Source of the DNA: a virus
Lineage: Duplodnaviria; Caudoviricetes
Virus record (IMG/VR): IMGVR_UViG_3300033145_002422
Length of the DNA stretch: 64,000 nucleotides
Reading direction: 5' to 3' (one strand)
Below, one piece after another: positions 1-42,506 of the stretch. The position numbers and the translations under genes were made by a program. Numbering within the stretch: the first letter of the stretch is position 1; each line of letters opens with the position of its first letter. The notes beneath the pieces are model-generated. The model saw only the letters and a list, made by a program, of their open reading frames with translations. It searched no databases and had not been told where the DNA came from.

Positions 1-1
1 T

Positions 2-88
2 GCAGAACTTATTAATAAAACAACCGTTATGCTTTTATCCAAGAATTTGAAGGGGAATAAAGATGAAGGAAATGAAGATTTTATGTAA
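2..88 (+). CDS. 3' end of an upstream hypothetical gene (partial)
   Basis: Open frame from the window edge, AELINKTTVMLLSKNLKGNKDEGNEDFM, ending at TAA 86-88. Confidence 0.5.
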   Translation, partial: AELINKTTVMLLSKNLKGNKDEGNEDFM

Positions 89-118
89 TAATTCTAATTA
101 AAATATTTGAGTAAAAAC

Positions 119-171
119 AAGGAAAATACAATGATAACCAGAATACAATATATGGTTGTTAATGTATTTTC
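119..171 (+). promoter_or_regulatory. Candidate phage promoter (AAGG-N18-GAAT) overlapping a 19-bp imperfect hairpin
   Basis: GAAAATACAATGATAACCA (122-140) pairs with TGGTTGTTAATGTATTTTC (153-171); the AAGG...GAAT/GTAT motif recurs at 7948, 10706 and 44953. Confidence 0.45.
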
Positions 172-190
172 TCATTGGAGATAATAAAAA

Positions 191-2716
191 ATGTCATTGT
201 TTAGTAAGATATTAAAAAATGTAAAAAGGTGGGCTTCTTCTGTTACTGTTAAAAAATCTCAAATTGCTATTAATGAAAATATTATAGATAAGAGGAAAAG
301 AATATCTAATGAGATATCTTCTTTGGATATAATGATTCAAAAGAAGATATTAGATCTTGTTAACAATTCTATAAATATTCTTGATGAATATCAATTAAAT
401 CAATTATATGATAATATATTGCAAATTCTTTCTGTTTATGTTGGAAACGATTCATATGATTGGTCTGGTTTTGTTAAAAAGATAGAAATGGCTATAAGTT
501 ATTTATCTTCGCAGAAGCAAAAAGAAGAACAGATTACTCAAGAAAAAGAAGAAGGAATGTCTGTAACTGGAAATATTGAAAATATAGTTTATGATTATTT
601 AAAACAAAATACAATAATAGGTAGTAATGGAAGAATTGTTGGTTTGTCTCCTAATATACAACCTCCTACAGATGAAATTAAAAATAATATAATATATTTT
701 AATAAAGTTGTTACAGACAATTCTATTACTGAGGCTGTTGCAAGTCAGGTTATATTGTCTGTAGGAAGAATGATTAGAGGTGAAGATGAAGGTATTTCTG
801 TAGATGAGCCAGAGTATATACAAAAACAAAATAAATATGAGAATCTTCCAGTTCATGTTAGAGATAGACAGGGGAGAAGTATGGCTGGAGACAGAATAGA
901 TTCTATAACTGGCTTCACTCCACAGGCTAAATTATTTATGGATTCTACTGATTTAGTTAATACTATGAAAAGGGTTATAGGCGGTAAAAAAGTTGGAGAT
1001 GATGGAGATGATGCTGTTCATCAAACTATTCAAAGATTTTTAGGACCAGATGCAGATGTTTTTTCAGTAGGCGGGAGTAACATATTGGTAGATTATAAAG
1101 ATGGAAGAATACTATTTTTTATGGAAAATCCTGATTATTTAGTGTCATTCTCTGAAAACAATGGTATAGATCTGGATAATGAGATAAGAACGAGTTTTCA
1201 GCAGACAATTAATTCTGGGAAACAGGATCTTCCTTTAATAACCAGCAAATCTAATGATGTATATCAATATTTATTAAATAATTACGGAGAACACCTTTTT
1301 GAAGAAATAAATAGACTGATTTCTGGTAGAGATAAAAAGTTTTTTTCTTGGTTAGTTGGTAAGTCTCGTTCTAGATTAAGTTCTATTTTACAGAAAAGAC
1401 AACAACAAAAATCATTAGTGGTCGATTCTGATGAGGGAAGATCATTTGAAAGAAAAAATAAAGGAAAGGTTTCGGACCAAGTGAGAGATATTAAACAAGA
1501 AGCTCAAATAGCTAAGAATTATTTTTATTCTGTATTTGACGGGATGAAGAATATAGCTGAAAAGATAAAAATATATTATAGAGATAATAAAGATTATGTT
1601 GGTGAAGATATGATTTCTTCTATGGTTGAAGCTGCATTTTCTAATCTTGAAAATACGTTTACAAAGAATGATACAGAATTGTCAAAGATTTTAAAAAAAC
1701 TTCCTTTTGATAATTTAAAATCTTTTGAATATTTTGTTAAACCAAGGGATGTTCACAGAATATTGGCTAAAAAGGGAGAAAAAAGATTACAAGTTAAAAA
1801 TGATGCTGAAAAAATGTTAAAACAAGGAATGATTATGCAGGATGTTGCTAGGGAGCTAAAAGTTGATCTTGAATATTTAAAAAATACAATAGAATCTCCA
1901 GAAGACAGTATCAAATCCAAGTATACAGGACCAACTGAAGAAGAAGTAAATTCAGCTATGAAAGAAGAGGGAAAGAAATGGCTTGGTATGATAAATTATA
2001 TTGCTGAGCATCCAGAATTTGATCCTAATCCAACTCTTGATGCGAGCATAGATTATAAATCTACTGAAGTTGCTGCAAAAACAAAAGCAATTAAAAATAA
2101 ATTCGGAATAAAAAAAGTTCCAGGTAGTTTAATTAACATAGAAAGTAAAGCAATGTTTTCCGTATTATCTGGAACTTCTCATGCTCAAGTAGCTAATACT
2201 AAGAGAACACAAATAAATAATAGTTATTTTAATGATAGTTATTTAAAAGCTTATTATACAAAAGTAGTTCATAGATTTGAAAGAAGTTCTTTTGAGAAAC
2301 TGGGAACTGATTTTATCCATTGGGCTGATATTCTTGTTGAAATGTCCGCTAAAGAAGCCAAAGAAGGAAATCCGCTAGAGGGATTACATAGAAAGGTATT
2401 TTTGAATTTAATACCTATACATAGTAGATTTAAAAGACCAAGTTCAAAGCAATCTGATGCTTGGGCGCAAAAATATGTTCCTATGTATTTTGATATTCTT
2501 GAAGAGAATATTCCATCTAAGTCTCCAAAGATTGCTAATACTAAAGAATATATGATATTTGCTATAGCCATGAGAGCTATGAATAAAATAGATTCTCTTG
2601 CTGGGGTTATGAATGGAATGATTAAACTTTCTTATTGCACTAGTAGGGGAAAAATTTCCGATGAAATAGATAGAATAGTATTAGAAACTAAGGTTTCTAT
2701 AGATATGGTGAAATAA
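191..2716 (+). CDS. Large hypothetical protein with possible sigma-like region 2 and HTH (possibly virion-associated)
   Basis: 841-aa ORF with GGAG RBS; DDAVHQTIQRFL...KFFSWLVGKSRSRL and KQGMIMQDVARELKVDLEYLKNTI segments. The ORF is solid, the function is speculative. Confidence 0.6.
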   Translation: MSLFSKILKNVKRWASSVTVKKSQIAINENIIDKRKRISNEISSLDIMIQKKILDLVNNSINILDEYQLNQLYDNILQILSVYVGNDSYDWSGFVKKIEMAISYLSSQKQKEEQITQEKEEGMSVTGNIENIVYDYLKQNTIIGSNGRIVGLSPNIQPPTDEIKNNIIYFNKVVTDNSITEAVASQVILSVGRMIRGEDEGISVDEPEYIQKQNKYENLPVHVRDRQGRSMAGDRIDSITGFTPQAKLFMDSTDLVNTMKRVIGGKKVGDDGDDAVHQTIQRFLGPDADVFSVGGSNILVDYKDGRILFFMENPDYLVSFSENNGIDLDNEIRTSFQQTINSGKQDLPLITSKSNDVYQYLLNNYGEHLFEEINRLISGRDKKFFSWLVGKSRSRLSSILQKRQQQKSLVVDSDEGRSFERKNKGKVSDQVRDIKQEAQIAKNYFYSVFDGMKNIAEKIKIYYRDNKDYVGEDMISSMVEAAFSNLENTFTKNDTELSKILKKLPFDNLKSFEYFVKPRDVHRILAKKGEKRLQVKNDAEKMLKQGMIMQDVARELKVDLEYLKNTIESPEDSIKSKYTGPTEEEVNSAMKEEGKKWLGMINYIAEHPEFDPNPTLDASIDYKSTEVAAKTKAIKNKFGIKKVPGSLINIESKAMFSVLSGTSHAQVANTKRTQINNSYFNDSYLKAYYTKVVHRFERSSFEKLGTDFIHWADILVEMSAKEAKEGNPLEGLHRKVFLNLIPIHSRFKRPSSKQSDAWAQKYVPMYFDILEENIPSKSPKIANTKEYMIFAIAMRAMNKIDSLAGVMNGMIKLSYCTSRGKISDEIDRIVLETKVSIDMVK

Positions 2717-2893
2717 ATGAAAATTTATTGTGTTTGTAGTTTTTGCGGACATCATTCTTCTGATGATTTAACTTTAGAGTTTAACTTTAGAGATAGTGTA
2801 GTCTATTTTGTTTGTCCTAAATGTAAGAAAGAAAATAAAATGGAATTAAAACCTCCTCAAAAACCTTTTCCAAAGATAAGAACAACGAGATAA
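2717..2893 (+). CDS. Small zinc-ribbon protein (58 aa, below the ORF-track cutoff)
   Basis: MKIYCVCSFCGHH...FVCPKCKKENKMELKPPQKPFPKIRTTR; two CxxC pairs; exactly fills the gap, starting right after the upstream TAA and overlapping the next ATG. Confidence 0.8.
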   Translation: MKIYCVCSFCGHHSSDDLTLEFNFRDSVVYFVCPKCKKENKMELKPPQKPFPKIRTTR

Positions 2894-3450
2894 TGTATTT
2901 AATAGCAAATTCAACATCTAGTTTCGTAGAATTGGCTGATTTGGGCGTTTCTTTAAAGCCAAAGCAGGCTCTTGATCTACATGCCATGGGGTATAAGGGG
3001 AAGTCTGAATCTTCATCGGATTTAAAAAAGGCAATAAAAAATGGTTGGATAAAAGTTCTTAAAAAAGATAAGGTTGCTATTAGAAAAGAAATTATTAAAG
3101 AAAGAATTGTAGAAAGAACTAGCGATGGGAATAAAGAAGAAATGTTAAGAAGTATACGTAAAATTATTCAAGAAGAAATAAAAAATATTAAAATAGATAA
3201 TTCGAATAGTGTTCCAAATAATTTATTGGAAACTTTGTCAGAGTTGATTAAAAATGGAGGCGATAAACAAAATATTGATAGTAATTTATTTAATGATGAT
3301 GGAGTAGATATAGAAAAAATGCAAGAGATACATATGAAAGTAGCTAAAAAAGTTATGAAGGGGGCTTCTTCTTCTGTCAATTATGAAGAGGAAAAGGTAA
3401 AAGATTCTTCTATGAAAAGCAATATTGCAGAGTTAGAGGATTTAATATAA
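2893..3450 (+). CDS. Hypothetical protein
   Basis: 185-aa ORF translationally coupled (TAATG) to the previous gene. Confidence 0.75.
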   Translation: MYLIANSTSSFVELADLGVSLKPKQALDLHAMGYKGKSESSSDLKKAIKNGWIKVLKKDKVAIRKEIIKERIVERTSDGNKEEMLRSIRKIIQEEIKNIKIDNSNSVPNNLLETLSELIKNGGDKQNIDSNLFNDDGVDIEKMQEIHMKVAKKVMKGASSSVNYEEEKVKDSSMKSNIAELEDLI

Positions 3451-3469
3451 ATTAAGGAGGATGAATTAT

Positions 3470-4561
3470 ATGAGTAAGGCTATTGGTGCTGACTGCGGTA
3501 CGATGTTTTTTCAAGTTGCTGAAAATGAAGAGAATGGAGATATAAAGATTAAGACAACGAGAAATGCTTTTGTTGAGTTGGCGGAATCTTCTGATGATGA
3601 TATAGAAGATGTTTTGAAAAGAAATAAATGGCAATATGTACAAGATGGGAATAAATATTATGTAATAGGAGAAGATTCTCTTAGAGTAGCAAAAATGTTT
3701 CCAGGTAGGGTTGAATTACGAAGGCCAATGCAGGATGGTGTTTTGAATAAGGGAGAAGATAAGAAGCTTTTGGTTCTTGGAGAATTAATAGAATCTTCTA
3801 TAGGAAAAGCCCCAGATAATAAATCAGTTGTTTGTATTTGTATTTCATCTGATTCTGTAGATGATTCTATGGATAGTACATTTCATAAAGCAAGGCTAAC
3901 TGGTTTATTTAAGAGATTAGATTGGAATATAAAAATTATTGAAGAAGGATTAGCGGTTGTTCTTTCTGAAAGACCAACAATTATTGAAGAAGATGGAAGC
4001 GAATCTCCATATAGTGGAGTTGGATTGTCATTTGGAGCAGGAAGAACGAATTGCGTTCTTGCTTACAAGGGTTTAAAGGTTATCGGTATGAGTTGCGCTA
4101 GATCTGGAGATTGGGTTGATCAGAAGGTTTCTGAGCAAACTGATACTCCAGTTTCTCAGGTTATTTCAAAAAAAGAAAAACAGCTAGATTTTTCTAATCT
4201 TGATTATGAAGATGATGTAATTTTTGCTTTAGATGCTTATTATGGTGCAATGATTGAGTTTGTTTTTAGCCATTTTGCAAAGAAATTTGCAGCGGTTAAA
4301 AGTCAATTTGATGCTCCTTTGGATATAATTGTTGCTGGCGGAACATCAATGCCAAAAGGATTTTGTAAGAAATTGGAAGAAGTAATAAAAAGAATGGATT
4401 TGCCTTTTAAGATTAAGGAAATAAAACATTCTGCTGATCCAAGAAATTCGGTAGTTAAGGGATGTTTGACTCAGGCTTCTATTACTAAGAAGAAGTTAGA
4501 CAAGTTAGACAAGTTAGACAAAGGTAAAGATTCAGATTTGGCTGAGATTTTAGGAGAATAA
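3470..4561 (+). CDS. Actin-like ATPase (MreB/ParM/FtsA superfamily)
   Basis: Phosphate-1 AIGADCGT, phosphate-2 GLSFGAGRTN, adenosine motif IIVAGGTS; AAGGAGG spacing favours ATG 3470 over 3461. Confidence 0.85.
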   Translation: MSKAIGADCGTMFFQVAENEENGDIKIKTTRNAFVELAESSDDDIEDVLKRNKWQYVQDGNKYYVIGEDSLRVAKMFPGRVELRRPMQDGVLNKGEDKKLLVLGELIESSIGKAPDNKSVVCICISSDSVDDSMDSTFHKARLTGLFKRLDWNIKIIEEGLAVVLSERPTIIEEDGSESPYSGVGLSFGAGRTNCVLAYKGLKVIGMSCARSGDWVDQKVSEQTDTPVSQVISKKEKQLDFSNLDYEDDVIFALDAYYGAMIEFVFSHFAKKFAAVKSQFDAPLDIIVAGGTSMPKGFCKKLEEVIKRMDLPFKIKEIKHSADPRNSVVKGCLTQASITKKKLDKLDKLDKGKDSDLAEILGE

Positions 4562-4564
4562 TAA

Positions 4565-5290
4565 ATGGGATATTCCACTATAACATTGATTGAAAGGATT
4601 TTAGCTCAAGCTTTGACTAGTTCTTCTCCAAAAGATTTATCTACACCAGTAGACCTTTTGAAAATAGGAAATACATTAGATACTAATTTGGTTTCTGAAT
4701 CCATAGCTGATCAATATATATTATGGGCAGATGAAGATATTAATGCAGCTATTAATGAATTATATAAAACTCCGTTATGTGAAAAAGCTGATTTCGAAAG
4801 AACTCTTTTTTCTGATATAAACGAATATAATCCATATATAATTACTGATAAGGGTTGCCCATGGTACCCTGGAGACATAATTATATTAAATGATGGGATA
4901 CATGAAGAAAGGCATATTATAAAAGAAGTGGTAGATTTGGTTAATAGAAACGTTTTTTTAACTGAGCAACCAGTTAATTATTATTTTAAAGCATCTAATA
5001 CAAGGGTTATAAGAATTAAATATCCAGAACCAGTAACATTGGTTTCTGCAAGGTTAGCTGCTGCGAACATATATGATAAATATTTAATGTCTCAATCAGC
5101 ACCTAATAAATCTGAATATGGTCAGTATTTAAGACAGATGGCCAGAGTAGATATAAATAATATTTTGAATGGAAGAACGATTCTTCATGGTCAACAAAGA
5201 ATTGGAAGAAGATTCTATAACGCTAATCTAGTTGATAGATATAGTTTACCTGGAGATTGGGGAGAACATAATATGGAGGATATTAGTTAA
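4565..5290 (+). CDS. Head-tail adaptor, Mu gp36/DUF1320-like, with an inserted beta domain
   Basis: ADEDINAAINELYKTPL...PEPVTLVSARLAAANIY...INNILNG pattern of gp36-like neck proteins; position before the tail genes. Confidence 0.6.
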   Translation: MGYSTITLIERILAQALTSSSPKDLSTPVDLLKIGNTLDTNLVSESIADQYILWADEDINAAINELYKTPLCEKADFERTLFSDINEYNPYIITDKGCPWYPGDIIILNDGIHEERHIIKEVVDLVNRNVFLTEQPVNYYFKASNTRVIRIKYPEPVTLVSARLAAANIYDKYLMSQSAPNKSEYGQYLRQMARVDINNILNGRTILHGQQRIGRRFYNANLVDRYSLPGDWGEHNMEDIS

Positions 5291-5574
5291 TGGAAATTAA
5301 ATCCAACATAAATGAAGTTATAGAGAAGTTAAAAGAGTTTAAGAAACCATTCATTAAAATTGAGAGTGATAATTATTCTATCATTGTCGAAGATGCTAAA
5401 TTTACAACTATAGAAAATAAATTAGATACAAATAGGCTTAGTAGTTCGGAAAATGATGCTATTAATGAATCAACTTATTTGGAAGTTAGGCAGGGATTAG
5501 GAGCAGATCAAAACAGTTTTGATGAGGTAATAAATAGATTTATGAGAGATTATTTAGAGGGAATATTTAAATAA
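5290..5574 (+). CDS. Hypothetical neck-region protein
   Basis: 94-aa ORF coupled to the upstream gene in the neck cluster. Confidence 0.65.
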   Translation: MEIKSNINEVIEKLKEFKKPFIKIESDNYSIIVEDAKFTTIENKLDTNRLSSSENDAINESTYLEVRQGLGADQNSFDEVINRFMRDYLEGIFK

Positions 5575-5575
5575 A

Positions 5576-5803
5576 TGGAATATTATTAATAATTTAAAAT
5601 TAAAGGATAGAACCTGGATTTGCAGTAATTGTAAAGAAGAACATGATAGAGACACAAATGCTGCTATAAATATTAAAACATTTGCACTACAAAAACAAAA
5701 CTTAATTTCACCCACGGACTGTGGGGTAGAGCTTCTGGAGAGATCTTGTTATAATAAGGCTCTGTGAGAGAAGAATCCTTATATAAGTACTAGGAATATG
5801 CCA
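5576..5803 (+). mobile_element. tnpB: IS200/IS605-family remnant: tnpB C-terminal fragment plus right end
   Basis: Start-less frame 5576-5767 reads NNLKLKDRTWICSNCKEEHDRDTNAAINIK (TnpB Zn-ribbon/RuvC-III signature); terminus GAATCC...AGGAATATGCCA resembles IS605 right ends. Confidence 0.85.
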
Positions 5804-5823
5804 TGGAATATTTAATTGATAGC
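5700..5823 (+). ncRNA. Putative omega-RNA (TnpB guide RNA) scaffold plus flanking guide
   Basis: CCCAC-GGACT-GTGGG hairpin (5711-5725), CTTCT/AGAAG pairing and a terminal TCCT...AGGA hairpin overlapping the tnpB 3' end; the 5' boundary is approximate. Confidence 0.5.
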
Positions 5824-6705
5824 GTTAGAAGGATAATTTCAAGATGGGTAAGCACTAATGCTCCGCTTATTTCAGATGCTTCTGCTGGAGATACGACTAT
5901 TGAAGTTACCACTTCTAAAAGATTCAAAGAAGGAGATGAAGTTATGTTGAGAAATCTAACGACTGGTGAAACTCCTCTTTATGTTGATGAGATAGTAGAT
6001 GATACACATATTAAATTGACTACTCCAATTAGGTTTCCATGGAAGGTTGCAGAGACTTCTATTATAGAAAAAACATTTAGACAAATGTTTGTTCAGGGAA
6101 TATATGTAGGAGATACTGATAATATACCTATGTATCCTGCTATTACTGTAGATGCAAGTAGTAGGGATTCAGAGTGGTTAACCATAGATAGCACAAAAGA
6201 GATGTATAGGCTTAAAGTAACTATTTATGTAAAAGCAGGAAGTCAAGAAGACACATATAGATTTTTATTGAATATGGTTGATACTATACAATATGGTTTA
6301 AAACAGAATATCTATCCTCTTGTTGCACCTTATGAAGTGACTACTCCAAAAGTTAATATATCTACTGGAGATGAGTATATAAAAGTTAATGATGTAAGTA
6401 TTTTTAATACAACTACAAAACATAGGATATTAATAGAAGATTTGTTTAAAACAGAGGAATTTGTTGTGGCTGAAATTGTAGATTCAGAAACTATAAGAGT
6501 TGCTCCGAAGGTTTGCCACGATTATATTATTAGTGATAATGCTAAAGTTATAAGTGTTAAAAGATTTTTTTACAATTCTTGGCCGGATAATATAGAATAT
6601 GGAACTATTTTTAAAGGGACTATGCTTAAGGCTGCTACAATTAATTGGTTTGCTTGGGAAGAAGAATTACATTTACAACCTCCAATGGATGTTAGTTTAA
6701 CATAA
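5803..6705 (+). CDS. Tail terminator/completion-like protein with two inserted beta domains
   Basis: YVGD...MYPAITV...YRLKVTIYVK...LVDTIQYGL-type core typical of tail completion proteins; synteny before the tube gene. Confidence 0.55.
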   Translation: MEYLIDSVRRIISRWVSTNAPLISDASAGDTTIEVTTSKRFKEGDEVMLRNLTTGETPLYVDEIVDDTHIKLTTPIRFPWKVAETSIIEKTFRQMFVQGIYVGDTDNIPMYPAITVDASSRDSEWLTIDSTKEMYRLKVTIYVKAGSQEDTYRFLLNMVDTIQYGLKQNIYPLVAPYEVTTPKVNISTGDEYIKVNDVSIFNTTTKHRILIEDLFKTEEFVVAEIVDSETIRVAPKVCHDYIISDNAKVISVKRFFYNSWPDNIEYGTIFKGTMLKAATINWFAWEEELHLQPPMDVSLT

Positions 6706-6725
6706 GAGAGAAAGGAAAGAAGGTA

Positions 6726-7928
6726 ATGAGAATACTAACAGTATGTGCATCGCCATATTTATTGACAAAATTGGGAAGAATGAATTCTTGTATTTTGAGA
6801 AAGTTAAAGGAAGAAGGAATAGAAGTAGCTTCTGCTGTTTGGCATCATGATGTTTCATATTTTCTTCCTAATAATGATGGTAAATATGAGTTTGAAAAAG
6901 ATAATTCAGTAGTATGTTTATTGTATCCATTTCATAATTATGCAGAGAAAAATGCCCCAGCGGTATATGATATTATAAAAGATTTCAATCCAGATATTGT
7001 TATTTCTATAGGTGATTATACAGATACTGATTTTATTTTTTCTATAAAGGCTTTAATGCCAATGTCTTTTAAATGGATAAGTATATTAGCTATAGACAGT
7101 ATGCCAATTAACGAGAGAAGAAAAGAGGCGTTTGAGTTTATAGATGTTGCTGTAGTTACAAGCAAAATGGCATTAGAAGAAATTAAAAAGGTTTCTAAAG
7201 TTGAAACAGTTTTTTCTTATTTTGGAACGGATCATAATATATTTAAAAAAGATAAAAAAATATTTCCAGAAAAAGATAAGTTGAGAGTTATAAGTTGTGC
7301 TAAAAATTCCCAATCTTCTGGAACAGCTTCCTTTATAAAAGGTGTTGCTGAAGCAAATAAAATAAATAATCATATTATTGGATATCTTCATACAAATGTT
7401 TCAGATAGGGGAGACTACGACATACCTTTACTTATAGAAAGGTTTGATGCTTCAGAAAGTGTAATATTACCAGATAATTTTGTTGGTTTAAATGATGGTA
7501 TATCTGATTTTGAATTGAATAAAGAATATAATAAATCCGATGTTATTGCCGATTTGTCTGTCAGATCATCTACTGGATTGACTGTTTTAGAGGCTATGGC
7601 AACCGGATGCATTCCATTATATACAGATGTTGGAGCTATTGGAGAGATAGGTAAGATGTTGTCTAATGAAGATTTGAATATACAAGGTAATACATATATA
7701 GGACAATTTGAGGAATACTATAAAATAGTATCAATAGAAGATTTTACTGAAAAATTATTGAAATTATATGAATTAAAGAAGGATAATGTAGAATTATTTT
7801 TTAATCTTAATAAAGAAAGCATAAATATATCTAGTTTATTTTCTGAAGATATTTTTATGAAAACAATAAAGGATGTTATAAAAAGAGTTGGTATTATAGA
7901 TAGAAAGGTAGAAGTTGAGATTATGTAA
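6726..7928 (+). CDS. GT-B (family 4-like) glycosyltransferase, possibly degenerate
   Basis: FNPDIVIS, YNKSDVI...STGLTVLEAMATGCIPLYTDVGAIGEI. Confidence 0.8.
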   Translation: MRILTVCASPYLLTKLGRMNSCILRKLKEEGIEVASAVWHHDVSYFLPNNDGKYEFEKDNSVVCLLYPFHNYAEKNAPAVYDIIKDFNPDIVISIGDYTDTDFIFSIKALMPMSFKWISILAIDSMPINERRKEAFEFIDVAVVTSKMALEEIKKVSKVETVFSYFGTDHNIFKKDKKIFPEKDKLRVISCAKNSQSSGTASFIKGVAEANKINNHIIGYLHTNVSDRGDYDIPLLIERFDASESVILPDNFVGLNDGISDFELNKEYNKSDVIADLSVRSSTGLTVLEAMATGCIPLYTDVGAIGEIGKMLSNEDLNIQGNTYIGQFEEYYKIVSIEDFTEKLLKLYELKKDNVELFFNLNKESINISSLFSEDIFMKTIKDVIKRVGIIDRKVEVEIM

Positions 7929-8007
7929 ATTTTGAAAAATAATAAAAAAGGATAAGAAGATTTTTTCAAAGAATTAATAATAAGTAATATTAAAGGGAGA
8001 AAATAAT

Positions 8008-8373
8008 ATGGCTCTTATAAGTTTTGTAGATTATAGAACACTTAGCGATGATCTTGCAGCAGCAAGAGAAAGTACATTGAATATTATGTCATTTACTTTT
8101 GATGCTGTATATACTGTTGTTTTATTGCAGGATGTTCAGCAAGAAGTAGATATGCTAAATGATTTCTGGAATACATATTTATTAAATGCGGATACTTTTG
8201 AAACGCCATCAACGTTGCTTGGTGCTGTAAGATCAATGGATTCTCATGTATTAAATAGGAGCAGTTATACTACTGTAGATTCTTATCTAGTTGCTAACGG
8301 TGGAACGGTTTCTCAGGTTTTTGCCGATTTATCCGCTTCTGCTGGATATCCTATAACAGAAATAGATCCATAA
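8008..8373 (+). CDS. Hypothetical (likely virion) protein
   Basis: 121-aa ORF with GGGAG RBS immediately before the tail tube gene. Confidence 0.7.
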   Translation: MALISFVDYRTLSDDLAAARESTLNIMSFTFDAVYTVVLLQDVQQEVDMLNDFWNTYLLNADTFETPSTLLGAVRSMDSHVLNRSSYTTVDSYLVANGGTVSQVFADLSASAGYPITEIDP

Positions 8374-8415
8374 TTGATGTTAAGATTATATAAATACTAA
8401 ACAGGAGTATAATAA

Positions 8416-9342
8416 ATGCCTTCAATTGCTAATCTTGGATATGTCGGTTATGCGAAATTCGGATTAATTAGTTATCCGGTTCGTGTAACATCGGCTGACT
8501 TAAAATTAACTCAATCGATTACTAAGCCAGATATTATAGATGGTAAGACGGATAAAACCGTTTATCAATTAGGACCAAAGGAAATTGGAGGCGGATTATC
8601 TTTTCCTGCTGTTCATGAGTCTTCGTCTGGTGTTGTTACTACATTATGGAATTTAGCCCTTGCTAGAGCAGCAGATGGAAGATTACAATATGATGATATC
8701 CATGTGAGATATGCGAATGGAACTTCTTTTAAATATAAAAAATGTATTATAAATACCATTGGAATATCTGTAACTCAGCAAGATGTTTTTAACATGACCT
8801 TGGATATCATGGGTACGGAACGTGAGAGCGTAGAAAGTACAGAACCTTCTTATGCTTTTAGGAATACAAGAATTGTAACATGGAATGATGTTGAATTTAA
8901 TATATCTTCCAGTGCTTTTAATGTTGTTGGTAGCGAAACAAGAAGTTTTTCTCTTAATGTTAATAATAATGCAGAAAGATATTATGCTTTTAATGGAAAG
9001 CTTACGCCTCAAGATGTAGCTCCAAAGAAAAGAGATATTGATGGAAGTCTGGTTGTTATGGGAAGGAACATAGGCTTAAGTGAATGGGCTTTAAGCAATC
9101 AATATAGATGTCATGAAGATAGCATTATACATTTTGGGTATAGGCTTGGAGCAGATGTATCTTCGACTGGTTGCGCTGGTGCTTGGATTGTAGAAATTCC
9201 TGGTGCGGTTTTTCAGATTGAAGAATTGGCTCTTACTAATGATTTATTTGAAACTACTATTAACTTCCTAGTTCTTCCTGGTATTAACTGGGTCGATGGT
9301 GGCGAGGGGAACGATACAACTTTTGTTACAGAATCCTTATAA
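8416..9342 (+). CDS. Major tail tube protein
   Basis: 308 aa, beta-rich, RSFSLNVNNN...KRDIDGSL pattern; strong AGGAG RBS; followed by a terminator, chaperones and the tape measure gene. Confidence 0.7.
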   Translation: MPSIANLGYVGYAKFGLISYPVRVTSADLKLTQSITKPDIIDGKTDKTVYQLGPKEIGGGLSFPAVHESSSGVVTTLWNLALARAADGRLQYDDIHVRYANGTSFKYKKCIINTIGISVTQQDVFNMTLDIMGTERESVESTEPSYAFRNTRIVTWNDVEFNISSSAFNVVGSETRSFSLNVNNNAERYYAFNGKLTPQDVAPKKRDIDGSLVVMGRNIGLSEWALSNQYRCHEDSIIHFGYRLGADVSSTGCAGAWIVEIPGAVFQIEELALTNDLFETTINFLVLPGINWVDGGEGNDTTFVTESL

Positions 9343-9377
9343 ATAAAAAAGGGCTATAACAGTAGCCCTTTTTTATT
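9342..9377 (+). terminator. Rho-independent terminator (symmetrical A/T tails)
   Basis: AATAAAAAAGGGCTA-TAACAG-TAGCCCTTTTTTATT perfect inverted repeat directly after the tube gene. Confidence 0.9.
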
Positions 9378-9487
9378 ATTTTAAAAAATCACTTCTCAAA
9401 TATAAACTATTTTGTTTTTAAGAATATAGTTATTTTTTTCCGATATATATATTAGTTATTTCTTTTTATAGAGAGTAGGAGAATTCC

Positions 9488-10057
9488 ATGTCATTATTAT
9501 CGCAAAATAAGCCTTCAATAGAGATTAAATTGTATTATAAGGAAATTAAGTTAGAATCTAATTTTACAAAAATTATTGTTCTTGAAGAGGATGAGGGAAA
9601 AAAGCTTTTTCAAGAACAGGAAGATAGGGATGAAAAAATTCAAGAAATAAAGAAAAAAATGGAAGCAATTAAAAAAAATACAACCAAAAAGATAGAAGGA
9701 GAACTTGCTGAGAATAAAGTTGAAACTAAGGAAGAGGAAAAGATAGATGAAGTTAATTTTAGAATATGTCTATTAAATACTCAATGGAAGATTCTTTCTT
9801 GGAAGGAACAAACGAATATAACTAGAGAGTCTTCTTATTTTAATAGGCAAGAGTCATTTCAGGATTTAGATATATGGAAATTTAGAGATTTAAGAATAAA
9901 AGCTTGTATGGTTTCATGGGATTTGAAGGATGATAGCAATCAGTCTATCCCAGTAAAACCGGATGTTATTGATCAACTTCCAGCAGATGTTGTTTTGAGC
10001 CTTGTTTCAAAGTATGATACGGCAGTTTCATTGAATGATGAAGAATCAAAAAACTAG
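9488..10057 (+). CDS. Tail assembly chaperone (G-like)
   Basis: Lies between tube and TMP; IKACMVSWDLKD...IDQLPADVV; ends in slippery A AAA AAC TAG. Confidence 0.75.
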   Translation: MSLLSQNKPSIEIKLYYKEIKLESNFTKIIVLEEDEGKKLFQEQEDRDEKIQEIKKKMEAIKKNTTKKIEGELAENKVETKEEEKIDEVNFRICLLNTQWKILSWKEQTNITRESSYFNRQESFQDLDIWKFRDLRIKACMVSWDLKDDSNQSIPVKPDVIDQLPADVVLSLVSKYDTAVSLNDEESKN

Positions 10058-10113
10058 TGATGGCGGTGGCTGATTATGTTGATGGGCGATGGCCACCGTC
10101 AAAAGAATTGCCC
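10048..10113 (+). promoter_or_regulatory. Programmed -1 ribosomal frameshift signal with H-type pseudoknot
   Basis: AAAAAAC 10048-10054 in the correct X XXY YYZ phase; 6-nt spacer; stem 1 10061-10070/10092-10101; stem 2 10084-10090/10107-10113. Confidence 0.85.
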
Positions 10114-10269
10114 TATGAAGTAAGAGAGTTTTTGATAGTAAAAGAGACAGGATGGACTTTGGAATATATAAGAAATTTAAGTATGCCAGATTTTGAAAAG
10201 TTTTCGTTAATTTCTCAGATATACAGGGTAAAAATGGATAATAAACGAGCTAAACAAGTGAGTATTTAA
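10057..10269 (+). CDS. Tail assembly chaperone frameshift extension (T-like)
   Basis: In the -1 frame relative to the upstream ORF; GWTLEYIRNLS motif typical of T segments. Confidence 0.75.
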   Translation: MMAVADYVDGRWPPSKELPYEVREFLIVKETGWTLEYIRNLSMPDFEKFSLISQIYRVKMDNKRAKQVSI

Positions 10270-10280
10270 TAGGAGGAGTA

Positions 10281-10685
10281 ATGAATAACATATTTGTAGA
10301 CCCAAAAGAAAAGATAACTGTAACTATTGTGATTGGACAGCAAAAGGGTAAAATTGTTTCCGCAGTAAATGAAGATGAATTGAAGAAAAATTATAAAGAT
10401 GTTGATATGGCGACAATTGAATCCCATCAGATTACGTTTAGAAGACCTAATTATAAGGATAATATAGATATACTTAGAGTCACTATGACTACAGATGGTG
10501 ATGAAGTTAAAATTGATGCGGCTACATTGAGGTATGAAAGATTTGTTAGCCTTGTTCAGAGTTGGACTTTAAAAAATGGGGAGAGCGATATTACTGCTAA
10601 TAGAGAGAATATTAATAAGTTAGAATTCGGAATAGCCAATACTATTATGGCTGCTTTAGATAATTCTCTTGGTTCGTCCATGTAA
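10281..10685 (+). CDS. Second tail assembly chaperone paralogue
   Basis: FRRPNYKD...LVQSWTLK...INKLEFGIA aligns by eye with the 9488 ORF; AGGAGGAG RBS. Confidence 0.6.
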   Translation: MNNIFVDPKEKITVTIVIGQQKGKIVSAVNEDELKKNYKDVDMATIESHQITFRRPNYKDNIDILRVTMTTDGDEVKIDAATLRYERFVSLVQSWTLKNGESDITANRENINKLEFGIANTIMAALDNSLGSSM

Positions 10686-10792
10686 AAATCAATTAAATAT
10701 TATAGAAGGAAACGGTTTAAAAAAGTATTATTTATTAATAGCGGAATATTTTCGCTGTTTAATCGTTTCTTTATTTATTTTCTGAGAAAATT

Positions 10793-13700
10793 ATGTCAAC
10801 TGATACGGATATTATTAAAAACACAAATTATAATATTGATTTTACTTCGACTGGTTTAGATAAAACTATAACTGGTGTAGCTGCATTATCTAAAGCTTTT
10901 AATAAGCAAGTTGATTCTATAAAAAAAGTATATAGCGGTTTTAAGGGTTTAACTACTACTGTTGCTTCTTTTACTGGAGCTACTGTATCTCTTAGTAAAT
11001 CTCTTGATACATTAATAAATTATAATAAAAGTATTTTAGGGTTGTCTGCTCAATGGAATAAATATGGAGTTTCAATAACTAAAGTTGAAGGTAGGGTAGA
11101 AAATCTTACTAAAACTCTTAGTATTACCAGATCAGAAGTAATGAAATTAGCCTCTAGTTTTGAGAAGGCTTTTTTATATAGTACTTTGGAAGGCGCTTCT
11201 AAAATACTTACGAATATAAAAAATGTTGTTGGTGCTAATGCGGAATCTATGGGTTCTATGCAAAATACTTTGTCATCTATAGCAGCTATGTTTCCAGGTA
11301 TGCAGAAAAGTATGGAAAATATGTCTAATATAGATAAGGATAGATTGACTTCTTCAAGTAGAATGTTATTTTTATCTGGCAAGATTAGTCAAGAACAATA
11401 TAGAACTTTGAGAGATTATATAAGCCAGAATGATCAAGTTTCCAAAAAAAATAAAGAAATGGCTGAGCAATCTAAAGAGTATTTGAAAATTATGGGGGAT
11501 TTAAAAGTATTTTGGGAAAAAATTTCCATTATAGTTGGAAAGGCTATTATGCCAGTGATGAAATCTTTGACAGATTTTCTTGTTAGGAATCAATCTCTAA
11601 TAGAAAATATAGTAGGTTTTACAACAAAATGGTTAGTTCCATTGTTACTTATAAAAAGTGTTTTTGGTTCTATATTTAAGATGGGGACCGGTGTTGGTGG
11701 CATGATTTCATCTGTTGCTAGAATGTTTGGTAGGAAGGGTGGTGCAGTAGGAGCTGTTTCTGCAATGACTGGCCCAAGTTTGGGTACTCAGAAAGTTTGG
11801 GTTACTAATCCTGGTTTTGGTCGTGGTGGCAATCTTACAAAAGAAGTGTCTGGATCTGCCAAGGAAACTGGTAAATTAACTGGATTATTAAAAAGTAAAA
11901 TGGCAAGATTAGGAATTGGCGGTGGAATGTTGGCCGGCGGTATGTTATTAGGCGAAGTTGGTAATCAGTTTTCAGCGTCTGGTCATAAAAAAACTGGTGC
12001 AGGAATAGGTCTTGCTGGTTCAGCAACAAATATAGGCGGATATGCCATGATGGGTTCTGCCCTTGGTCCGGTAGGAGCAGCCGGTGGAGCAGCTATTGGG
12101 TTTGCAAAAGAGCTTCCGAAAATGGTTGATAATATCAGAAAGATTGCAGGAAAAGGAGAGGACGAAAGTACTCTTCCTGGGTGGGCTAGAAAAGGGTTAG
12201 ATATCGCTTCATATGTTAATCCGGTTGTTTTTCTTGCAAAAAAATTAGTTCCAGATCTTTCTAGGGATAGAGAAAAGGGAGGGGCAGAAAGGAAAGAGAG
12301 GGTAGAACGACAAAAAGGATATCAAAAAACATTTGCTCAAGAAGAGTTGGCAAAAAAAGATGAATATAAACAAATACAGGATGAAGAGAGAAAGAGGTAT
12401 CTAACCGGAACTCCTCAAGAGATAAGTAATAATTTGGAAAGTATAACAAAAAGAAAGGCTGATATAAGTGCTGAAAAAGAAAAATATAGAACTAAGGATA
12501 AGACTGGTCTTGTAGATAAAATAGAATATGCATCGGAAACATTAGAATTCCAGAAAGAAAGAAAAGAAGGTCTTTTAAGAAAAAAAGAAGAGAGACAGAA
12601 AGAAGGAAAGGGAACTAGCGATGTTGATGACGAATTAAAAGCTATACAAAAAAATATAAGAGAAGCAACAATAGATTTTTCATCTGCAAAAAAGAATTTG
12701 ACTAAAATAGTTGGTAAAGATTTATATGAAGAATATGAAAAAATAAGTAAAGAGGAAGAAACGGCGTTAAAATATGCCAAAGAACAAATCATGATAACTC
12801 AACAACAATTGTCTCTTAATTCCTCTAGATTATCTTCTTTAGATGCTTTATCTGAAAAAGCTATTTTATTGGGGGTTAAAGATGAAAGTTTTGCTAAGAT
12901 GAAAGAACAAAATCAAAATTATTATTTAGGATTAAAAAGATCTGAAAAAGATTTAGATAAGTCAATAATGATGCTTAAACAGAGAATGAATGCTGCTGAT
13001 CAAAATACTAAAGAAGGTAGAATAGAAAGAGCGCAAGCTGAAGAAGAGCTAAATATTAAAGTAAAGCAAAGAGCGGATTTGGAAAAACAGGAATATGAAT
13101 CCTTATTAAAGGTTTTTAATCTTCTTGAACGAATTGCTCAAACTTCTTCTGCATTAGCTGCTACTCGTTCTTCTTTACTTGAATCTATTATAGATCAAAA
13201 GGCATATTTAGGAACTAATGAAAATATAGAATTGGCTATAACAGAAACTGTTAAAGATAGAAATAGAGAAATATCTGATTTAAATGTTGCTTATGAAGAG
13301 GCAGAAAGTAAGTTGAAAGATATGAAAGTAGATAGCGTCGAATATCTTAAGGTTCAAGAAAAAATGTTAGGAATATCCATGAAAATGAATGCTGCTAGGA
13401 AGGGTGCCGTGGAAGCTCAGCTTAAAATAACAGATCAGCATAAAGTAGAATTGAAGATAGCAGAACAAAATAGTCAATTAGCAGAAATGAGTGTTCAGCT
13501 TTTAGACCAATTTGTAACTGGCCTTGGTGCAAGCGTAGGAATGAGAATGAAGGCCATAGAGATGTCAGAAAAGCAATTAGATATTACTAAAAAACAAATA
13601 TCTGAATTAAATGCTAGTGATGAAATTGAGAAGAAGAAACCAATTTGGCAAGAGAAGATGAATGAGTTTAAATTAAAAGAACTTAGTATTACTATGAAGA

Positions 13701-14359
13701 TAGCTGAACAATCTAAAGCCATGAGAGATGGTTGGGTTGATTCTATCAAAGCTATGCAGATAGGTTCTGGTAGAATTTCTAAGATTGTTGTTGACCAGAA
13801 TAAGAACTTAGGCGTTGGAATGAAGTATTTGGATGGGTTCGTAAGAACATATAAGAGCGGTGCCGTAGGAAGGGTAGGAGAGGGGATGGTTGGCTCTGCT
13901 GGCTCTGAAAGATTTAAAGCTAACAGATATGGTGCTGGTGGCCTTGATATAGCTGGTGGCAGGTCTACAAGCCCTTATGCAACTGATTATGGTCCAAGTA
14001 TTGCAGAAACAAATAGGATTTCTCAGGGATTAAGGGGGGGAGATCGTTCCGCAGCTATGGCGGGAGTTCAGGGTCAAATAACTAGAGCCAGAGCAGGTCA
14101 AAGACGTACTGGTGGATCTTCTTTAGCTGGTGAAACTACCGCTGCTAGCATTATAATTGCTCAGGGCGTAGGAACTGGCAATGGTGGGGGATCGATTGCT
14201 GATAGGGGCGTGATGTCTAGCGGCGGTTCAGTAACGGTTCCTATCAGTATGACATTCGAAATTAACAATAATGGAGATATAAGGAATGTAGCCAGTAAGG
14301 TAGCAGATATGGTAGAAAAGAGACTTTCTAAAGAGCTTGGTAAAAATGTTTCTCATTAA
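10793..14359 (+). CDS. Tape measure protein
   Basis: 1188 aa, helical/coiled-coil with Gly/Ala-rich hydrophobic segments, VWVTN motif, canonical position. Confidence 0.85.
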   Translation: MSTDTDIIKNTNYNIDFTSTGLDKTITGVAALSKAFNKQVDSIKKVYSGFKGLTTTVASFTGATVSLSKSLDTLINYNKSILGLSAQWNKYGVSITKVEGRVENLTKTLSITRSEVMKLASSFEKAFLYSTLEGASKILTNIKNVVGANAESMGSMQNTLSSIAAMFPGMQKSMENMSNIDKDRLTSSSRMLFLSGKISQEQYRTLRDYISQNDQVSKKNKEMAEQSKEYLKIMGDLKVFWEKISIIVGKAIMPVMKSLTDFLVRNQSLIENIVGFTTKWLVPLLLIKSVFGSIFKMGTGVGGMISSVARMFGRKGGAVGAVSAMTGPSLGTQKVWVTNPGFGRGGNLTKEVSGSAKETGKLTGLLKSKMARLGIGGGMLAGGMLLGEVGNQFSASGHKKTGAGIGLAGSATNIGGYAMMGSALGPVGAAGGAAIGFAKELPKMVDNIRKIAGKGEDESTLPGWARKGLDIASYVNPVVFLAKKLVPDLSRDREKGGAERKERVERQKGYQKTFAQEELAKKDEYKQIQDEERKRYLTGTPQEISNNLESITKRKADISAEKEKYRTKDKTGLVDKIEYASETLEFQKERKEGLLRKKEERQKEGKGTSDVDDELKAIQKNIREATIDFSSAKKNLTKIVGKDLYEEYEKISKEEETALKYAKEQIMITQQQLSLNSSRLSSLDALSEKAILLGVKDESFAKMKEQNQNYYLGLKRSEKDLDKSIMMLKQRMNAADQNTKEGRIERAQAEEELNIKVKQRADLEKQEYESLLKVFNLLERIAQTSSALAATRSSLLESIIDQKAYLGTNENIELAITETVKDRNREISDLNVAYEEAESKLKDMKVDSVEYLKVQEKMLGISMKMNAARKGAVEAQLKITDQHKVELKIAEQNSQLAEMSVQLLDQFVTGLGASVGMRMKAIEMSEKQLDITKKQISELNASDEIEKKKPIWQEKMNEFKLKELSITMKIAEQSKAMRDGWVDSIKAMQIGSGRISKIVVDQNKNLGVGMKYLDGFVRTYKSGAVGRVGEGMVGSAGSERFKANRYGAGGLDIAGGRSTSPYATDYGPSIAETNRISQGLRGGDRSAAMAGVQGQITRARAGQRRTGGSSLAGETTAASIIIAQGVGTGNGGGSIADRGVMSSGGSVTVPISMTFEINNNGDIRNVASKVADMVEKRLSKELGKNVSH

Positions 14360-41681: not shown

Positions 41682-41712
41682 AGTGCTGCAAAAAACCGAT
41701 ATAATATTCATT

Positions 41713-42501
41713 ATGGAGCCATACTACAAATTAAAAGTTATTAAAAAATCTTATAAAATAAGACCAGTAGATATTATCGTTTTATCTAATAACGGGTTAT
41801 CTACAACAAAGGAATTTTTGGATTTTCTTTATACGAATACAGATTCCGAAGATTTTAGACTTATTTTTATAGACAATGGTTCAATTGATGGTACTGTTGA
41901 TTTTTTGAAAACATTTTTTAAAGATTTAAAAGATGTCATTTTTATATCTTCAGAAACTAATTTAGGAGTTATAGATGGTAGAAATGTAGGATACTATTTT
42001 TCTACTTGTACTTCTAGAGAAAAATCAAAATATATAATTCATTTAGATAATGACCAATTTGTAGCAGATGGTTGGTTAGATCACCATTTAAGTGTTTTAA
42101 ATAGCGGTTATGATGTAGTAGGTGCTGAAGCTTGGAAAATGAATAAAATGTTTATTCCCACTGATAAAATTGAATCATTAAATAAAGATTTTAATTATGT
42201 TGGATGCGGAGGAATGCTTATAAAGAGAGAAGTTACTAAAAAAATAGGAATGTTTGATTGCGCTTTTAACCCTTCTTATTTTGAAGATCCAGATTTTTGT
42301 TTTAGAGCATTTGATGCTGGATTTAAAATTGGATGGAATTTAAAATCTAAAATAGTTCATATGCCTCATAGAACACTTGGTAATTTAAGTCAAGAAGAAA
42401 AAACAAAAAGGTTTACTAAGAGTTGGGATGCATTTAGAAAAAAATGGGGGACCAGACGATTGCCAGTTTTTAGACAAGAAGATTTAAAAGAGTTTCATTA
42501 A
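41713..42501 (+). CDS. Glycosyltransferase family 2
   Basis: IFIDNGSIDGT, HLDND, YFEDPDFCFR; ATG 41713 avoids overlap with the upstream gene (track start 41644). Confidence 0.85.
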   Translation: MEPYYKLKVIKKSYKIRPVDIIVLSNNGLSTTKEFLDFLYTNTDSEDFRLIFIDNGSIDGTVDFLKTFFKDLKDVIFISSETNLGVIDGRNVGYYFSTCTSREKSKYIIHLDNDQFVADGWLDHHLSVLNSGYDVVGAEAWKMNKMFIPTDKIESLNKDFNYVGCGGMLIKREVTKKIGMFDCAFNPSYFEDPDFCFRAFDAGFKIGWNLKSKIVHMPHRTLGNLSQEEKTKRFTKSWDAFRKKWGTRRLPVFRQEDLKEFH

Positions 42502-42506
42502 ATAAA

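What the first reader, a model, noticed from the sequence alone, without database searches (positions are those of the whole stretch)
2717..4561. Zn-ribbon / unknown / actin-like ATPase cassette directly abutting the neck genes
Seen: a tightly packed trio (unannotated 58-aa CxxC protein, 185-aa protein, actin-fold ATPase with all three nucleotide-binding motifs) lies 3 nt from the head-tail adaptor gene. Known: characterised phage cytoskeletal proteins are tubulin PhuZ/TubZ or ParM/AlpC-type actins linked to DNA positioning. Inference: placement in the late structural operon suggests a filament that positions or transports capsids or scaffolds assembly, with the 185-aa protein as adaptor. This would be an actin-based counterpart of the PhuZ treadmill.
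Basis: partly seen in the sequence, partly recalled or inferred. Interest (0 to 1): 0.7.

Follow-up and report, generated by a model that had tools for sequence, protein, structure and literature searches.

The report
Phage actin filament gene with adaptor
A 256-kb uncultured phage, like at least 150 other viral contigs, encodes a true actin-family protein next to a small partner protein, here placed just before the head-to-tail joining genes, so these phages probably build their own actin filaments late in infection; I found no paper that describes this.

Summary
Three abutting + strand genes (58-aa zinc ribbon, 185-aa protein, actin-like protein) lie 3 nt upstream of a gene that I confirmed as a head-tail adaptor. 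The actin gene probably starts at 3470, giving 363 aa rather than 366.

The actin-like protein belongs to Pfam Volactin (8.4e-61). Its model (pLDDT 95) is closest to filament-forming actins: BeeR, MreB, crenactin and actin.

It is the most conserved protein of the module: 62-69% identical in six related huge-phage loci, against about 50% for the adaptor and 38% for the tail tube.

IMG/VR holds 153 viral contigs with this family, in at least seven gene contexts that follow the actin tree. Only the 185-aa partner travels with the actin between two contexts whose neck genes show no detectable homology.

The partner has an N-terminal domain, a variable linker and a short C-terminal helix. In other lineages the upstream protein has a hydrophobic, membrane-anchor-like N-terminus instead.

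Best reading: a two-part phage cytoskeleton (filament plus tether) made with the neck and tail genes. A role in virion assembly or transport is inferred, not shown. Polymerisation and binding are untested.

This scan has already reported the same module on other genomes. No searched paper describes it.

The parts
191..2716 (+). 841-aa fast-evolving large protein at the upstream edge of the module; function unknown
   Evidence: No Pfam or PHROG match. Large ORFs of 750-1030 aa hold the same position in related loci, with only a faint local match around residues 303-390.
2717..2893 (+). 58-aa zinc-ribbon protein (CxC-x2-C-x-H ... CPxC) with a conserved C-terminal P-x-P-K/R-x-R tail
   Evidence: ORF. 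Weak Zn_ribbon Pfam matches. Orthologues sit directly upstream of the partner gene in 20 window-type loci.
2893..3450 (+). 185-aa candidate adaptor: conserved N-terminal domain of about 55 aa, variable charged linker, conserved C-terminal helix ending ELEDLI
   Evidence: Alignments A4 and A7. hhalign links it to the gene just upstream of the actin in type B contexts: 87% probability, E 3.9e-6, and 82%. In a public MAG record the actin and partner homologues carry consecutive locus tags, WDA06_00225 and WDA06_00230.
3470..4561 (+). Volactin-family actin-like ATPase (363 aa; the ORF is open from 3461)
   Evidence: Pfam PF25216 at 8.4e-61. AF2 pLDDT 95.2. VIA Z: BeeR 28.4, MreB 26.5, crenactin 25.5. 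Start site.
4565..5290 (+). 241-aa head-tail adaptor (Mu gp36/DUF1320 type) with an inserted beta-barrel at residues 73-154
   Evidence: PF07030 matches 32 of 38 family members. VIA Z 12.4 to the JBD30 connector 8rka_B, and Z 8-9 to many neck and adaptor chains.
5290..5574 (+). 94-aa small protein whose position is conserved after the adaptor
   Evidence: ORFs of 85-114 aa follow the adaptor in most window-type loci. No family match.
5803..6705 (+). 300-aa conserved neck/tail protein (an earlier agent called it the tail terminator; I did not verify this)
   Evidence: 42-56% identical orthologues at the same position. Only a weak 'Rider' beta-barrel Pfam match. No PDB profile match.
8416..9342 (+). 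308-aa tail tube protein, marking the start of the tail genes
   Evidence: Pfam Phage_tube_2 at 4.7e-13 and phrog_290 at 1.2e-17. Syntenic in all window-type loci.

Best explanation
The cassette is a two-part phage cytoskeleton. The 363-aa volactin-type actin polymerises with ATP. The 185-aa protein tethers the filament to something else: its C-terminal helix would bind the actin and its N-terminal domain would bind a cargo or anchor. Both are made together with the neck and tail genes late in infection, and the filament most likely organises the last steps of virion assembly in space, for example by bringing filled heads and tails or their assembly sites together. The zinc-ribbon protein is an accessory specific to this lineage.

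Shown: the fold and family, the extreme conservation, the fixed pairing with the partner, and the position among neck genes.

Inferred: polymerisation, partner binding, the cargo, and the timing.
For: Fold and family. The nearest solved structures are filament formers (BeeR Z 28.4, MreB 26.5, crenactin 25.5), and volactin itself forms dynamic filaments in vivo (PMC10869688).

Conservation: the actin is 62-69% identical in the six related huge-phage loci. In the same loci the adaptor is about 50%, the 300-aa protein about 45%, the tube about 38% and the partner about 28%. About 500 homologues exist, many on contigs of 100-550 kb.

Gene order: the genes abut as in an operon. Window-type synteny is seen in 22 loci.

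The pair travels together: across the type A and type B contexts only the partner-actin pair is shared. In both contexts it lies among neck genes. In type A it precedes the adaptor. In type B it sits between a Neck1/HK97 gp10-like gene (phrog_5, 5.1e-10) and a terminator-like gene, which is only a lead from the ESM Atlas.

Vertical descent: context types map onto clades of the actin tree, with 8 label changes against a minimum of 7.

Partner build: domain, linker and terminal helix. The immediately upstream ORF ends in LxxhxG in 19 of 77 loci, against 15 of 690 background ORFs.

Charge pattern: partner tails are acidic in type A and basic in types B, D and E. The actins show the opposite charges at positions 101, 143 and 344, and further group-specific charges at 145, 152, 342 and 346, most of them in helices 140-151 and 330-351.

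No centromere-like repeats are nearby.
Against: No experiment exists for any viral member, and no cultured phage has the gene: only two uncultured GenBank records match.

Phosphate-2 has Ser instead of the usual Asp, which could slow or abolish hydrolysis.

Gene position is weak evidence of function. Module boundaries are common insertion sites, and the portal and protease-scaffold lie 45-58 kb away according to earlier agents.

In other lineages the neighbours are glycosyltransferases, PKD-domain proteins or a NUDIX protein, and the upstream protein looks membrane-anchored. The cargo therefore cannot be the same everywhere.

The C-terminal motif and the charge pattern were defined after looking at the data, on related sequences. 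The idea that these helices line a binding cleft comes from general knowledge of actin, not from a superposition made here.
Confidence: 0.5

Rival explanations
1. The pair is a ParMRC-like system that positions or partitions DNA. The actin filament would push or pull phage genomes or replication centres, and the partner, perhaps with the zinc-ribbon protein, would be the DNA-binding adaptor.
For: Distant family members P0158 and P0244 carry an N-terminal ParB-type HTH fused to the volactin domain. The related haloarchaeal salactin aids DNA partitioning (PMC10746226). Prophage AlpC is an actin linked to viral DNA replication (PMC4446434). The partner's build, a domain plus a C-terminal tail, mirrors ParR.
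Against: There is no iteron or centromere-like array, and no non-coding space, around the cassette. The partner and the zinc ribbon have no recognised DNA-binding domain. The pair is fixed among neck genes, not replication genes, in two independent contexts. Partners in other lineages look membrane-anchored. Pfam ParM/ALP models do not match, whereas they do match phage G gp506.
Confidence: 0.2
2. The protein does not polymerise. It would be an actin-fold ATPase acting as an assembly chaperone, or as a part of the neck or virion, as the Hsp70 homologue does in closterovirus particles.
For: It lies inside the neck gene set. Phosphate-2 Ser replaces Asp. Hsp70 nucleotide-binding domains also score well against the model (Z about 23; viral Hsp70 homologues).
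Against: There is no substrate-binding domain: the protein is 363 aa and is all actin fold. The best sequence and structure matches are filament formers. It belongs to a family with filaments observed in vivo. Conservation this high fits a polymer with many interfaces.
Confidence: 0.12
3. The protein is a host-takeover factor. The phage actin would replace or disturb the host MreB/FtsA-type cytoskeleton or envelope growth, for example to enlarge the cell or stop division for a large burst. Its place in the late operon would be incidental.
For: Predicted membrane-anchored upstream partners occur in several lineages (type E 6 of 6, type F 3 of 5). Glycosyltransferase-rich neighbourhoods occur in types C to E. 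The structure is close to MreB.
Against: In types A and B the partner is soluble. MreB_Mbl scores below its Pfam cut-off, 17.5 against 27 bits. The hosts are unknown. Nothing links the protein to host proteins.
Confidence: 0.1

Closest known systems
Volactin (VolA, HVO_2015) of Haloferax volcanii; Pfam PF25216
   Same: Same Pfam family, matched over the full length at 206.6 bits against a cut-off of 35. Same actin fold. Among 14 control genomes the family model passes its cut-off in only one; four ring, and H. volcanii is one of them. Volactin forms dynamic filaments (PMC10869688).
   Different: The phage protein is a divergent branch, about 200 bits where other members tested score 260-280. 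It is viral, is paired with a dedicated upstream partner, and sits in a neck/tail operon. Volactin is a cellular cell-shape factor.
ParM/ParR (R1 plasmid) and the Alp7A/AlfA plasmid and phage actins, including Bacillus phage G gp506-gp505
   Same: An actin-like polymer gene lies next to a small adaptor gene. The adaptor has an N-terminal domain and a C-terminal tail, as ParR does.
   Different: It is a different actin family. ALP_N and ParM Pfam models match gp506 but not this protein, and hhalign finds no link. The adaptor is upstream rather than downstream. There are no parC-like repeats. The context is structural, not plasmid-like.
PhuZ tubulin spindle of Chimalliviridae jumbo phages
   Same: A cytoskeletal polymer encoded by large phages. 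It may work in the same way, positioning or transporting assembly intermediates (PMC13282480).
   Different: PhuZ has a tubulin fold and this protein an actin fold. PhuZ is not encoded in the neck module and has no such partner. Nothing about transport is shown here.
MamK / BeeR / MreB bacterial actins
   Same: These are the closest solved structures and profile matches: MamK 3.6e-16, BeeR 1.4e-9, MreB 5e-9; BeeR Z 28.4, MreB Z 26.5.
   Different: Identity is 15-18%. Pfam MreB_Mbl scores below its cut-off. Phosphate-2 is SxGxG rather than DxGxG. It is viral, with its own partner.
AlpC/AlpA of Corynebacterium prophage CGP3
   Same: A phage-encoded actin-like protein with an adaptor, shown to polymerise and to serve the virus (PMC4446434).
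   Different: AlpC is linked to viral DNA replication and positioning. I did not compare sequences directly because none was available by reference.

Membership tests
Actin/ASKHA superfamily | Two-lobed actin fold with four subdomains | tested here: met
   AF2 pLDDT 95.2, pTM 0.93. Foldseek matches to MreB, actin and MamK with probability 1.00. VIA Z 24-28.
Actin/ASKHA superfamily | Phosphate-1 (DxG[TS]), phosphate-2 (DxGxG) and adenosine (GG..xxG) motifs | tested here: met
   D11, G13 and T14, G192 and G194, and G293, G294, G300 and F301 are invariant or nearly so in 67 sequences. The first residue of phosphate-2 is Ser190, not Asp, throughout the family.
Volactin (Pfam PF25216) | Score above Pfam's gathering cut-off over the full model | tested here: met
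   206.6 bits against a cut-off of 35, model positions 2-321 of 321.
Volactin (Pfam PF25216) | Forms dynamic filaments | not testable with these tools
   Known for H. volcanii volactin only (PMC10869688). No multimer modelling or wet test was available.
ParM/Alp type II partition actins | Match to the ParM/ALP sequence models | tested here: not met
   No ALP_N, ParM_N or Alp7A_like_C match at E up to 0.1. Phage G gp506 matches them at 2e-22. hhalign between the two gives probability 0.9%.
ParM/Alp type II partition actins | Adjacent centromere-like repeat array (parC) | tested here: not met
   Only short coding repeats are found in 1-10000. The genes abut, leaving no intergenic space.
ParM/Alp type II partition actins | Adjacent DNA-binding adaptor (ParR-like) | tested here: inconclusive
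   A dedicated partner exists, but no DNA-binding domain was detected.
MreB | Match to Pfam MreB_Mbl above the cut-off | tested here: not met
   17.5 bits against a cut-off of 27, covering residues 63-148 only.
Hsp70 chaperones | Substrate-binding domain after the nucleotide-binding domain | tested here: not met
   The protein ends after the actin fold with a tail of about 25 residues. No Hsp70 Pfam match.
Head-tail adaptor, Mu gp36/DUF1320 type (for the 241-aa neighbour) | Sequence and fold match to DUF1320 adaptors of solved connectors | tested here: met
   PF07030 matches 32 of 38 family members, best 8.8e-7. VIA Z 12.4, rmsd 3.3, 115 of 137 residues of JBD30 8rka_B. The window protein itself falls below Pfam detection.

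The most novel reading that the evidence does not exclude
A large and widespread set of uncultured phages, from about 40 kb to more than 500 kb, uses an actin-based cytoskeleton with interchangeable tethers. The tethers would be soluble neck- or capsid-binding domains in huge phages and membrane anchors in others. The system would move or position virion assembly intermediates, making it an actin counterpart of the PhuZ tubulin system. The tether's C-terminal peptide would plug into the actin cleft as ParR does in ParM.
Probability: 0.3. Interest if true: 0.85.

Novelty: new variant of a known kind. Interest (0 to 1): 0.66.

Why it matters
Phage cytoskeletons known so far are tubulins (PhuZ, TubZ) and ParM/Alp-type actins tied to DNA. 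This is a different actin family, previously characterised only in a haloarchaeon.

In phages it is among the most conserved proteins of the structural region, is always paired with a tether-like partner, and sits among head-to-tail joining genes.

If it does organise late assembly, it would show that large phages solved the problem of moving big particles through crowded cytoplasm more than once, using both cytoskeletal folds.

It would also supply a small two-gene actin system whose anchors differ naturally between lineages, which is convenient for studying how filaments are coupled to cargo.

The abundance of the family also suggests that much of the metagenomic 'volactin' diversity may be viral: 153 IMG/VR contigs, and about 500 close homologues, many of them on contigs of 100-550 kb.

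Tried and rejected
Tools and data that were not available:
- No whole genome is held for the window, so I could not inspect the head genes upstream.

Idea rejected, that the 366-aa protein is the major capsid protein: it occupies a capsid-like slot and is the most conserved gene. It is rejected because the protein is unambiguously actin-fold.

Idea rejected, that it is related to phage G gp506: gp506 is an ALP/Alp7A-type actin in a two-gene cassette elsewhere in that genome.

Searches that found nothing:
- PHROGs has no match for the trio or the adaptor.
- tblastn of the adaptor and the 300-aa protein found nothing in 50,697 GenBank phages.
- Megablast of the first 20 kb of the window found nothing.
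- The broad alignment A1 was too diverse to scan genome contigs.
- The close alignment A2 found only one MAG contig there, labelled Asgardarchaeum, which carries the window-type gene order (zinc ribbon, partner, actin, adaptor, 300-aa protein, tube) and so looks like a phage contig.
- Single distant homologues P0128, P0144 and P0158 found no IMG/VR relatives.
- hhalign between the other type A and type B neighbours found no homology.
- PDB profile searches with the partner and the 300-aa family gave nothing.
- The ESM Atlas gave only unnamed viral clusters for the partner.
- The promoter and terminator scan was no better than shuffled sequence.
- LR756511 has the actin but no detectable window-type neighbours.

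Full report
**Observation.** The + strand carries three abutting ORFs at 2717-2893 (58 aa), 2893-3450 (185 aa) and 3461-4561 (366 aa). They follow an 841-aa ORF that ends at 2716 and end 3 nt before a 241-aa ORF at 4565-5290.

The Shine-Dalgarno AAGGAGG at 3454-3460 abuts the first ATG and lies 9 nt before the ATG at 3470. The public gene call is 363 aa, and orthologues begin at the matching residue. The actin gene therefore most likely runs 3470-4561.

A consensus scan finds no promoter or terminator signal above shuffled sequence. The genes read as one translationally coupled block.

**What the 366-aa protein is.** Pfam Volactin (PF25216) matches over its whole length at 8.4e-61. MreB_Mbl and Actin match only below their cut-offs.

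A profile of 67 family members matches MamK (3.6e-16), BeeR (1.4e-9), MreB (5e-9) and FtsA in the PDB.

The AlphaFold2 model is very confident (pLDDT 95.2, pTM 0.93). Foldseek returns MreB/Mbl, BeeR, MamK and actin. An exhaustive VIA-align search ranks BeeR Z 28.4, MreB 26.5, crenactin 25.5 and actin 24.3, ahead of Hsp70 domains at about 23 and ParMs at 17-22.

Invariant or near-invariant residues include D11, G13 and T14 (phosphate-1), G192 and G194 (phosphate-2), G293, G294, T295, G300 and F301 (adenosine), E162 and D217. The first phosphate-2 residue is Ser190 throughout the family, where Asp is usual.

**The neighbours.** The 241-aa gene is a head-tail adaptor. 32 of 38 family members match Pfam Phage_Mu_Gp36. 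Its model aligns with the DUF1320 adaptor of the phage JBD30 connector (Z 12.4, 115 residues) and with many neck proteins at Z 8-9. It also carries an inserted beta-barrel at residues 73-154.

The 308-aa gene at 8416-9342 is a tail tube protein.

Notes from earlier agents place the portal and the protease-scaffold 45-58 kb upstream of the window. I could not check this, because no genome is held. If so, the cassette opens the neck/tail block rather than sitting inside the head genes.

**Relatives.** About 500 proteins at 62-86% identity exist, many on contigs of 100-550 kb, including the window's own 255,885-bp contig. An exhaustive search counts 784 clusters at 50% identity with E up to 0.001. 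No cultured phage has the gene. Only two uncultured huge-phage GenBank records match, at about 30% identity.

In six IMG/VR huge-phage loci and one MAG contig the order is conserved: zinc ribbon, partner, actin, adaptor, small ORF, 300-aa protein, (glycosyltransferase), 121-aa protein, tube. In the six IMG/VR loci the actin is the most conserved member at 62-69% identity. The adaptor is about 50%, the 300-aa protein about 45%, the tube about 38% and the partner about 28%.

Because of that conservation and its slot, I asked whether it might be the capsid protein. The fold evidence excludes this.

**Wider survey.** A degenerate pattern from more distant members found 153 IMG/VR contigs encoding the family, of which 80 were fetched.

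Clustering the neighbours gives at least seven recurring same-strand contexts:
- Type A is the window type (22 loci, window included).
- Type B, in 18 distinct loci, reads: 450-930-aa protein, Neck1/HK97 gp10-like protein (phrog_5, 5.1e-10), partner, actin, 400-aa protein, 145-aa zinc ribbon, about 1500-aa protein with DUF2460. The 400-aa protein is terminator-like, which is only a lead from the ESM Atlas.
- Types C to G have other neighbours: GT9-like and MptE-like enzymes, PKD-domain proteins, a NUDIX protein, and a weak portal-like match.

On a maximum-likelihood tree of 77 actins the context labels need 8 changes, against a minimum of 7. Type A is one clade with 99% support. This was the quick search, because the careful one did not finish. 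The gene has therefore descended with its phage lineages rather than hopping about.

**The partner.** hhalign links the 185-aa family to the proteins just upstream of the actin in type B: 87% probability with E 3.9e-6, and 82%. Within type B the links are 93-97%. No other type A neighbour is detectably homologous to any type B neighbour. The conserved unit is therefore partner plus actin.

The joint alignment shows three parts:
- an N-terminal domain of about 55 residues;
- a variable Q/E/K-rich linker;
- a conserved C-terminal segment ending in a short amphipathic helix, acidic in type A (ELEDLL) and basic in type B (for example LRALKGK).

Across all contexts, the immediately upstream ORF ends with LxxhxG within its last 12 residues in 19 of 77 distinct loci. 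The figure for other conserved ORFs is 15 of 690. I defined this motif after seeing the data, and the loci are related, so it is suggestive only.

In type E (6 of 6), type F (3 of 5) and some unclassified loci, the upstream protein has a hydrophobic N-terminal segment that looks like a membrane anchor.

Type A actins carry lineage-specific Lys or Arg where actins of types B, D and E are acidic, at positions 101, 143 and 344. Further group-specific charges lie at 145, 152, 342 and 346. Most of these fall in helices 140-151 and 330-351. In actins generally these helices line the cleft between subdomains 1 and 3, where ParR binds ParM. That mapping is from established knowledge and was not superposed here. 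The opposite charges of the partner tails fit a tail-in-cleft interaction. This is inference.

**Rival clues.** Two distant family members carry an N-terminal ParB-type HTH, and the haloarchaeal actin salactin aids DNA partitioning. A DNA-positioning role therefore cannot be dismissed. However, there are no repeat arrays or non-coding gaps near the cassette, and no DNA-binding domain was detected in the partner or the zinc ribbon.

Phage G gp506 appeared as a structural neighbour. It is an ALP/Alp7A-type actin in a separate two-gene cassette and is unrelated at the profile level.

**Literature.** Searches for volactin, BeeR, phage actins, and huge or jumbo phages with actin or MreB found no description of this viral family. 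A 2026 review of jumbo phage biology discusses only PhuZ as a phage cytoskeleton.

This scan itself has reported the same module on other genomes, with the same reading. My results agree. They add the second neck context, the range of contexts and tethers, the tree, the inteins, and the ParB fusions.

**Verdict.** Its function is still inferred.

I put the two-part late cytoskeleton reading at about 0.5. The rivals are DNA positioning at 0.2, a non-polymerising assembly factor at 0.12, and host takeover at 0.1.

Noticed in passing
P0121 and P0129 (homologues of window 3470-4561): Some phage volactin homologues of about 720-730 aa carry an intein with a LAGLIDADG homing endonuclease. In P0121 it sits between R211 and S212 (363-aa numbering), just before the invariant GDW(I/V)D motif, ends in HN, and is followed by Cys at +1.
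   Followed up: partly
P0158 and P0244 (distant family members, about 30% identity): A ParB-type HTH domain is fused to the N-terminus of a full volactin domain. This hints that some family members are coupled directly to DNA.
   Followed up: partly
L054, L057, L058, L062, L068, L081 (type E); L032, L045 (type F); L042, L052: The small protein just upstream of the actin has a hydrophobic N-terminal segment like a membrane anchor. In most of these loci (not L032) it also has a C-terminal L-x-x-L-K/R tail, such as SKLAQLKGK or KLRKLRGK; in L052 the tail lacks the Gly (KDKLKSLRR). This suggests membrane-tethered phage actin filaments in these lineages.
   Followed up: partly
window 4493-4521: A perfect 9-nt repeat (AAGTTAGAC, 3.2 copies) encodes KLDKLDKLD in the actin's C-terminal tail. 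Several orthologues end in D-L-x-x-I-L-G-E/D, which resembles the partner's ELEDLL(G) ending.
   Followed up: partly
window 191-2716: The 841-aa protein has K-K-S-Q at residues 21-24, after RWASS. This fits the K-x-[A/S]-Q tag that earlier agents describe as a head-targeting or protease signal in this genome. Positional orthologues are almost unalignable.
   Followed up: no
window 46995-49985: A 996-aa ResIII/DEAD helicase is interrupted by an intein with a LAGLIDADG domain.
   Followed up: no
window 6726-7928 and 41644-43640: Glycosyltransferase genes (GT4-like, GT2, GT1) are embedded in the neck/tail block. This suggests virion glycosylation. GT9-like genes also flank the actin in other phage lineages (types C to E).
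   Followed up: no
window 8008-14359: No tail sheath gene was recognised between the neck genes and the tube. The tube is followed by ORFs of 189 aa and 134 aa and a 1188-aa ORF, an order like that of long non-contractile tails (tube, assembly chaperones, tape measure). These roles were not tested, and this may not fit a myovirus such as phage G.
   Followed up: no
L008 40879-42376 (Bacillus phage G gp505-gp506): Phage G encodes an Alp7A/ParM-type actin (ALP_N 2e-22) with a 129-aa downstream gene on the minus strand. This looks like a plasmid-type segregation cassette, distinct from the volactin module.
   Followed up: partly
L007 (JBECUL010000084.1, MAG labelled Candidatus Asgardarchaeum abyssi): This 7.6-kb contig, binned as an Asgard archaeon, carries the window-type gene order: zinc ribbon, partner, actin, adaptor, 300-aa protein, tube. 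It is most likely a phage contig, so the 'archaeal' label on some database homologues is doubtful.
   Followed up: partly
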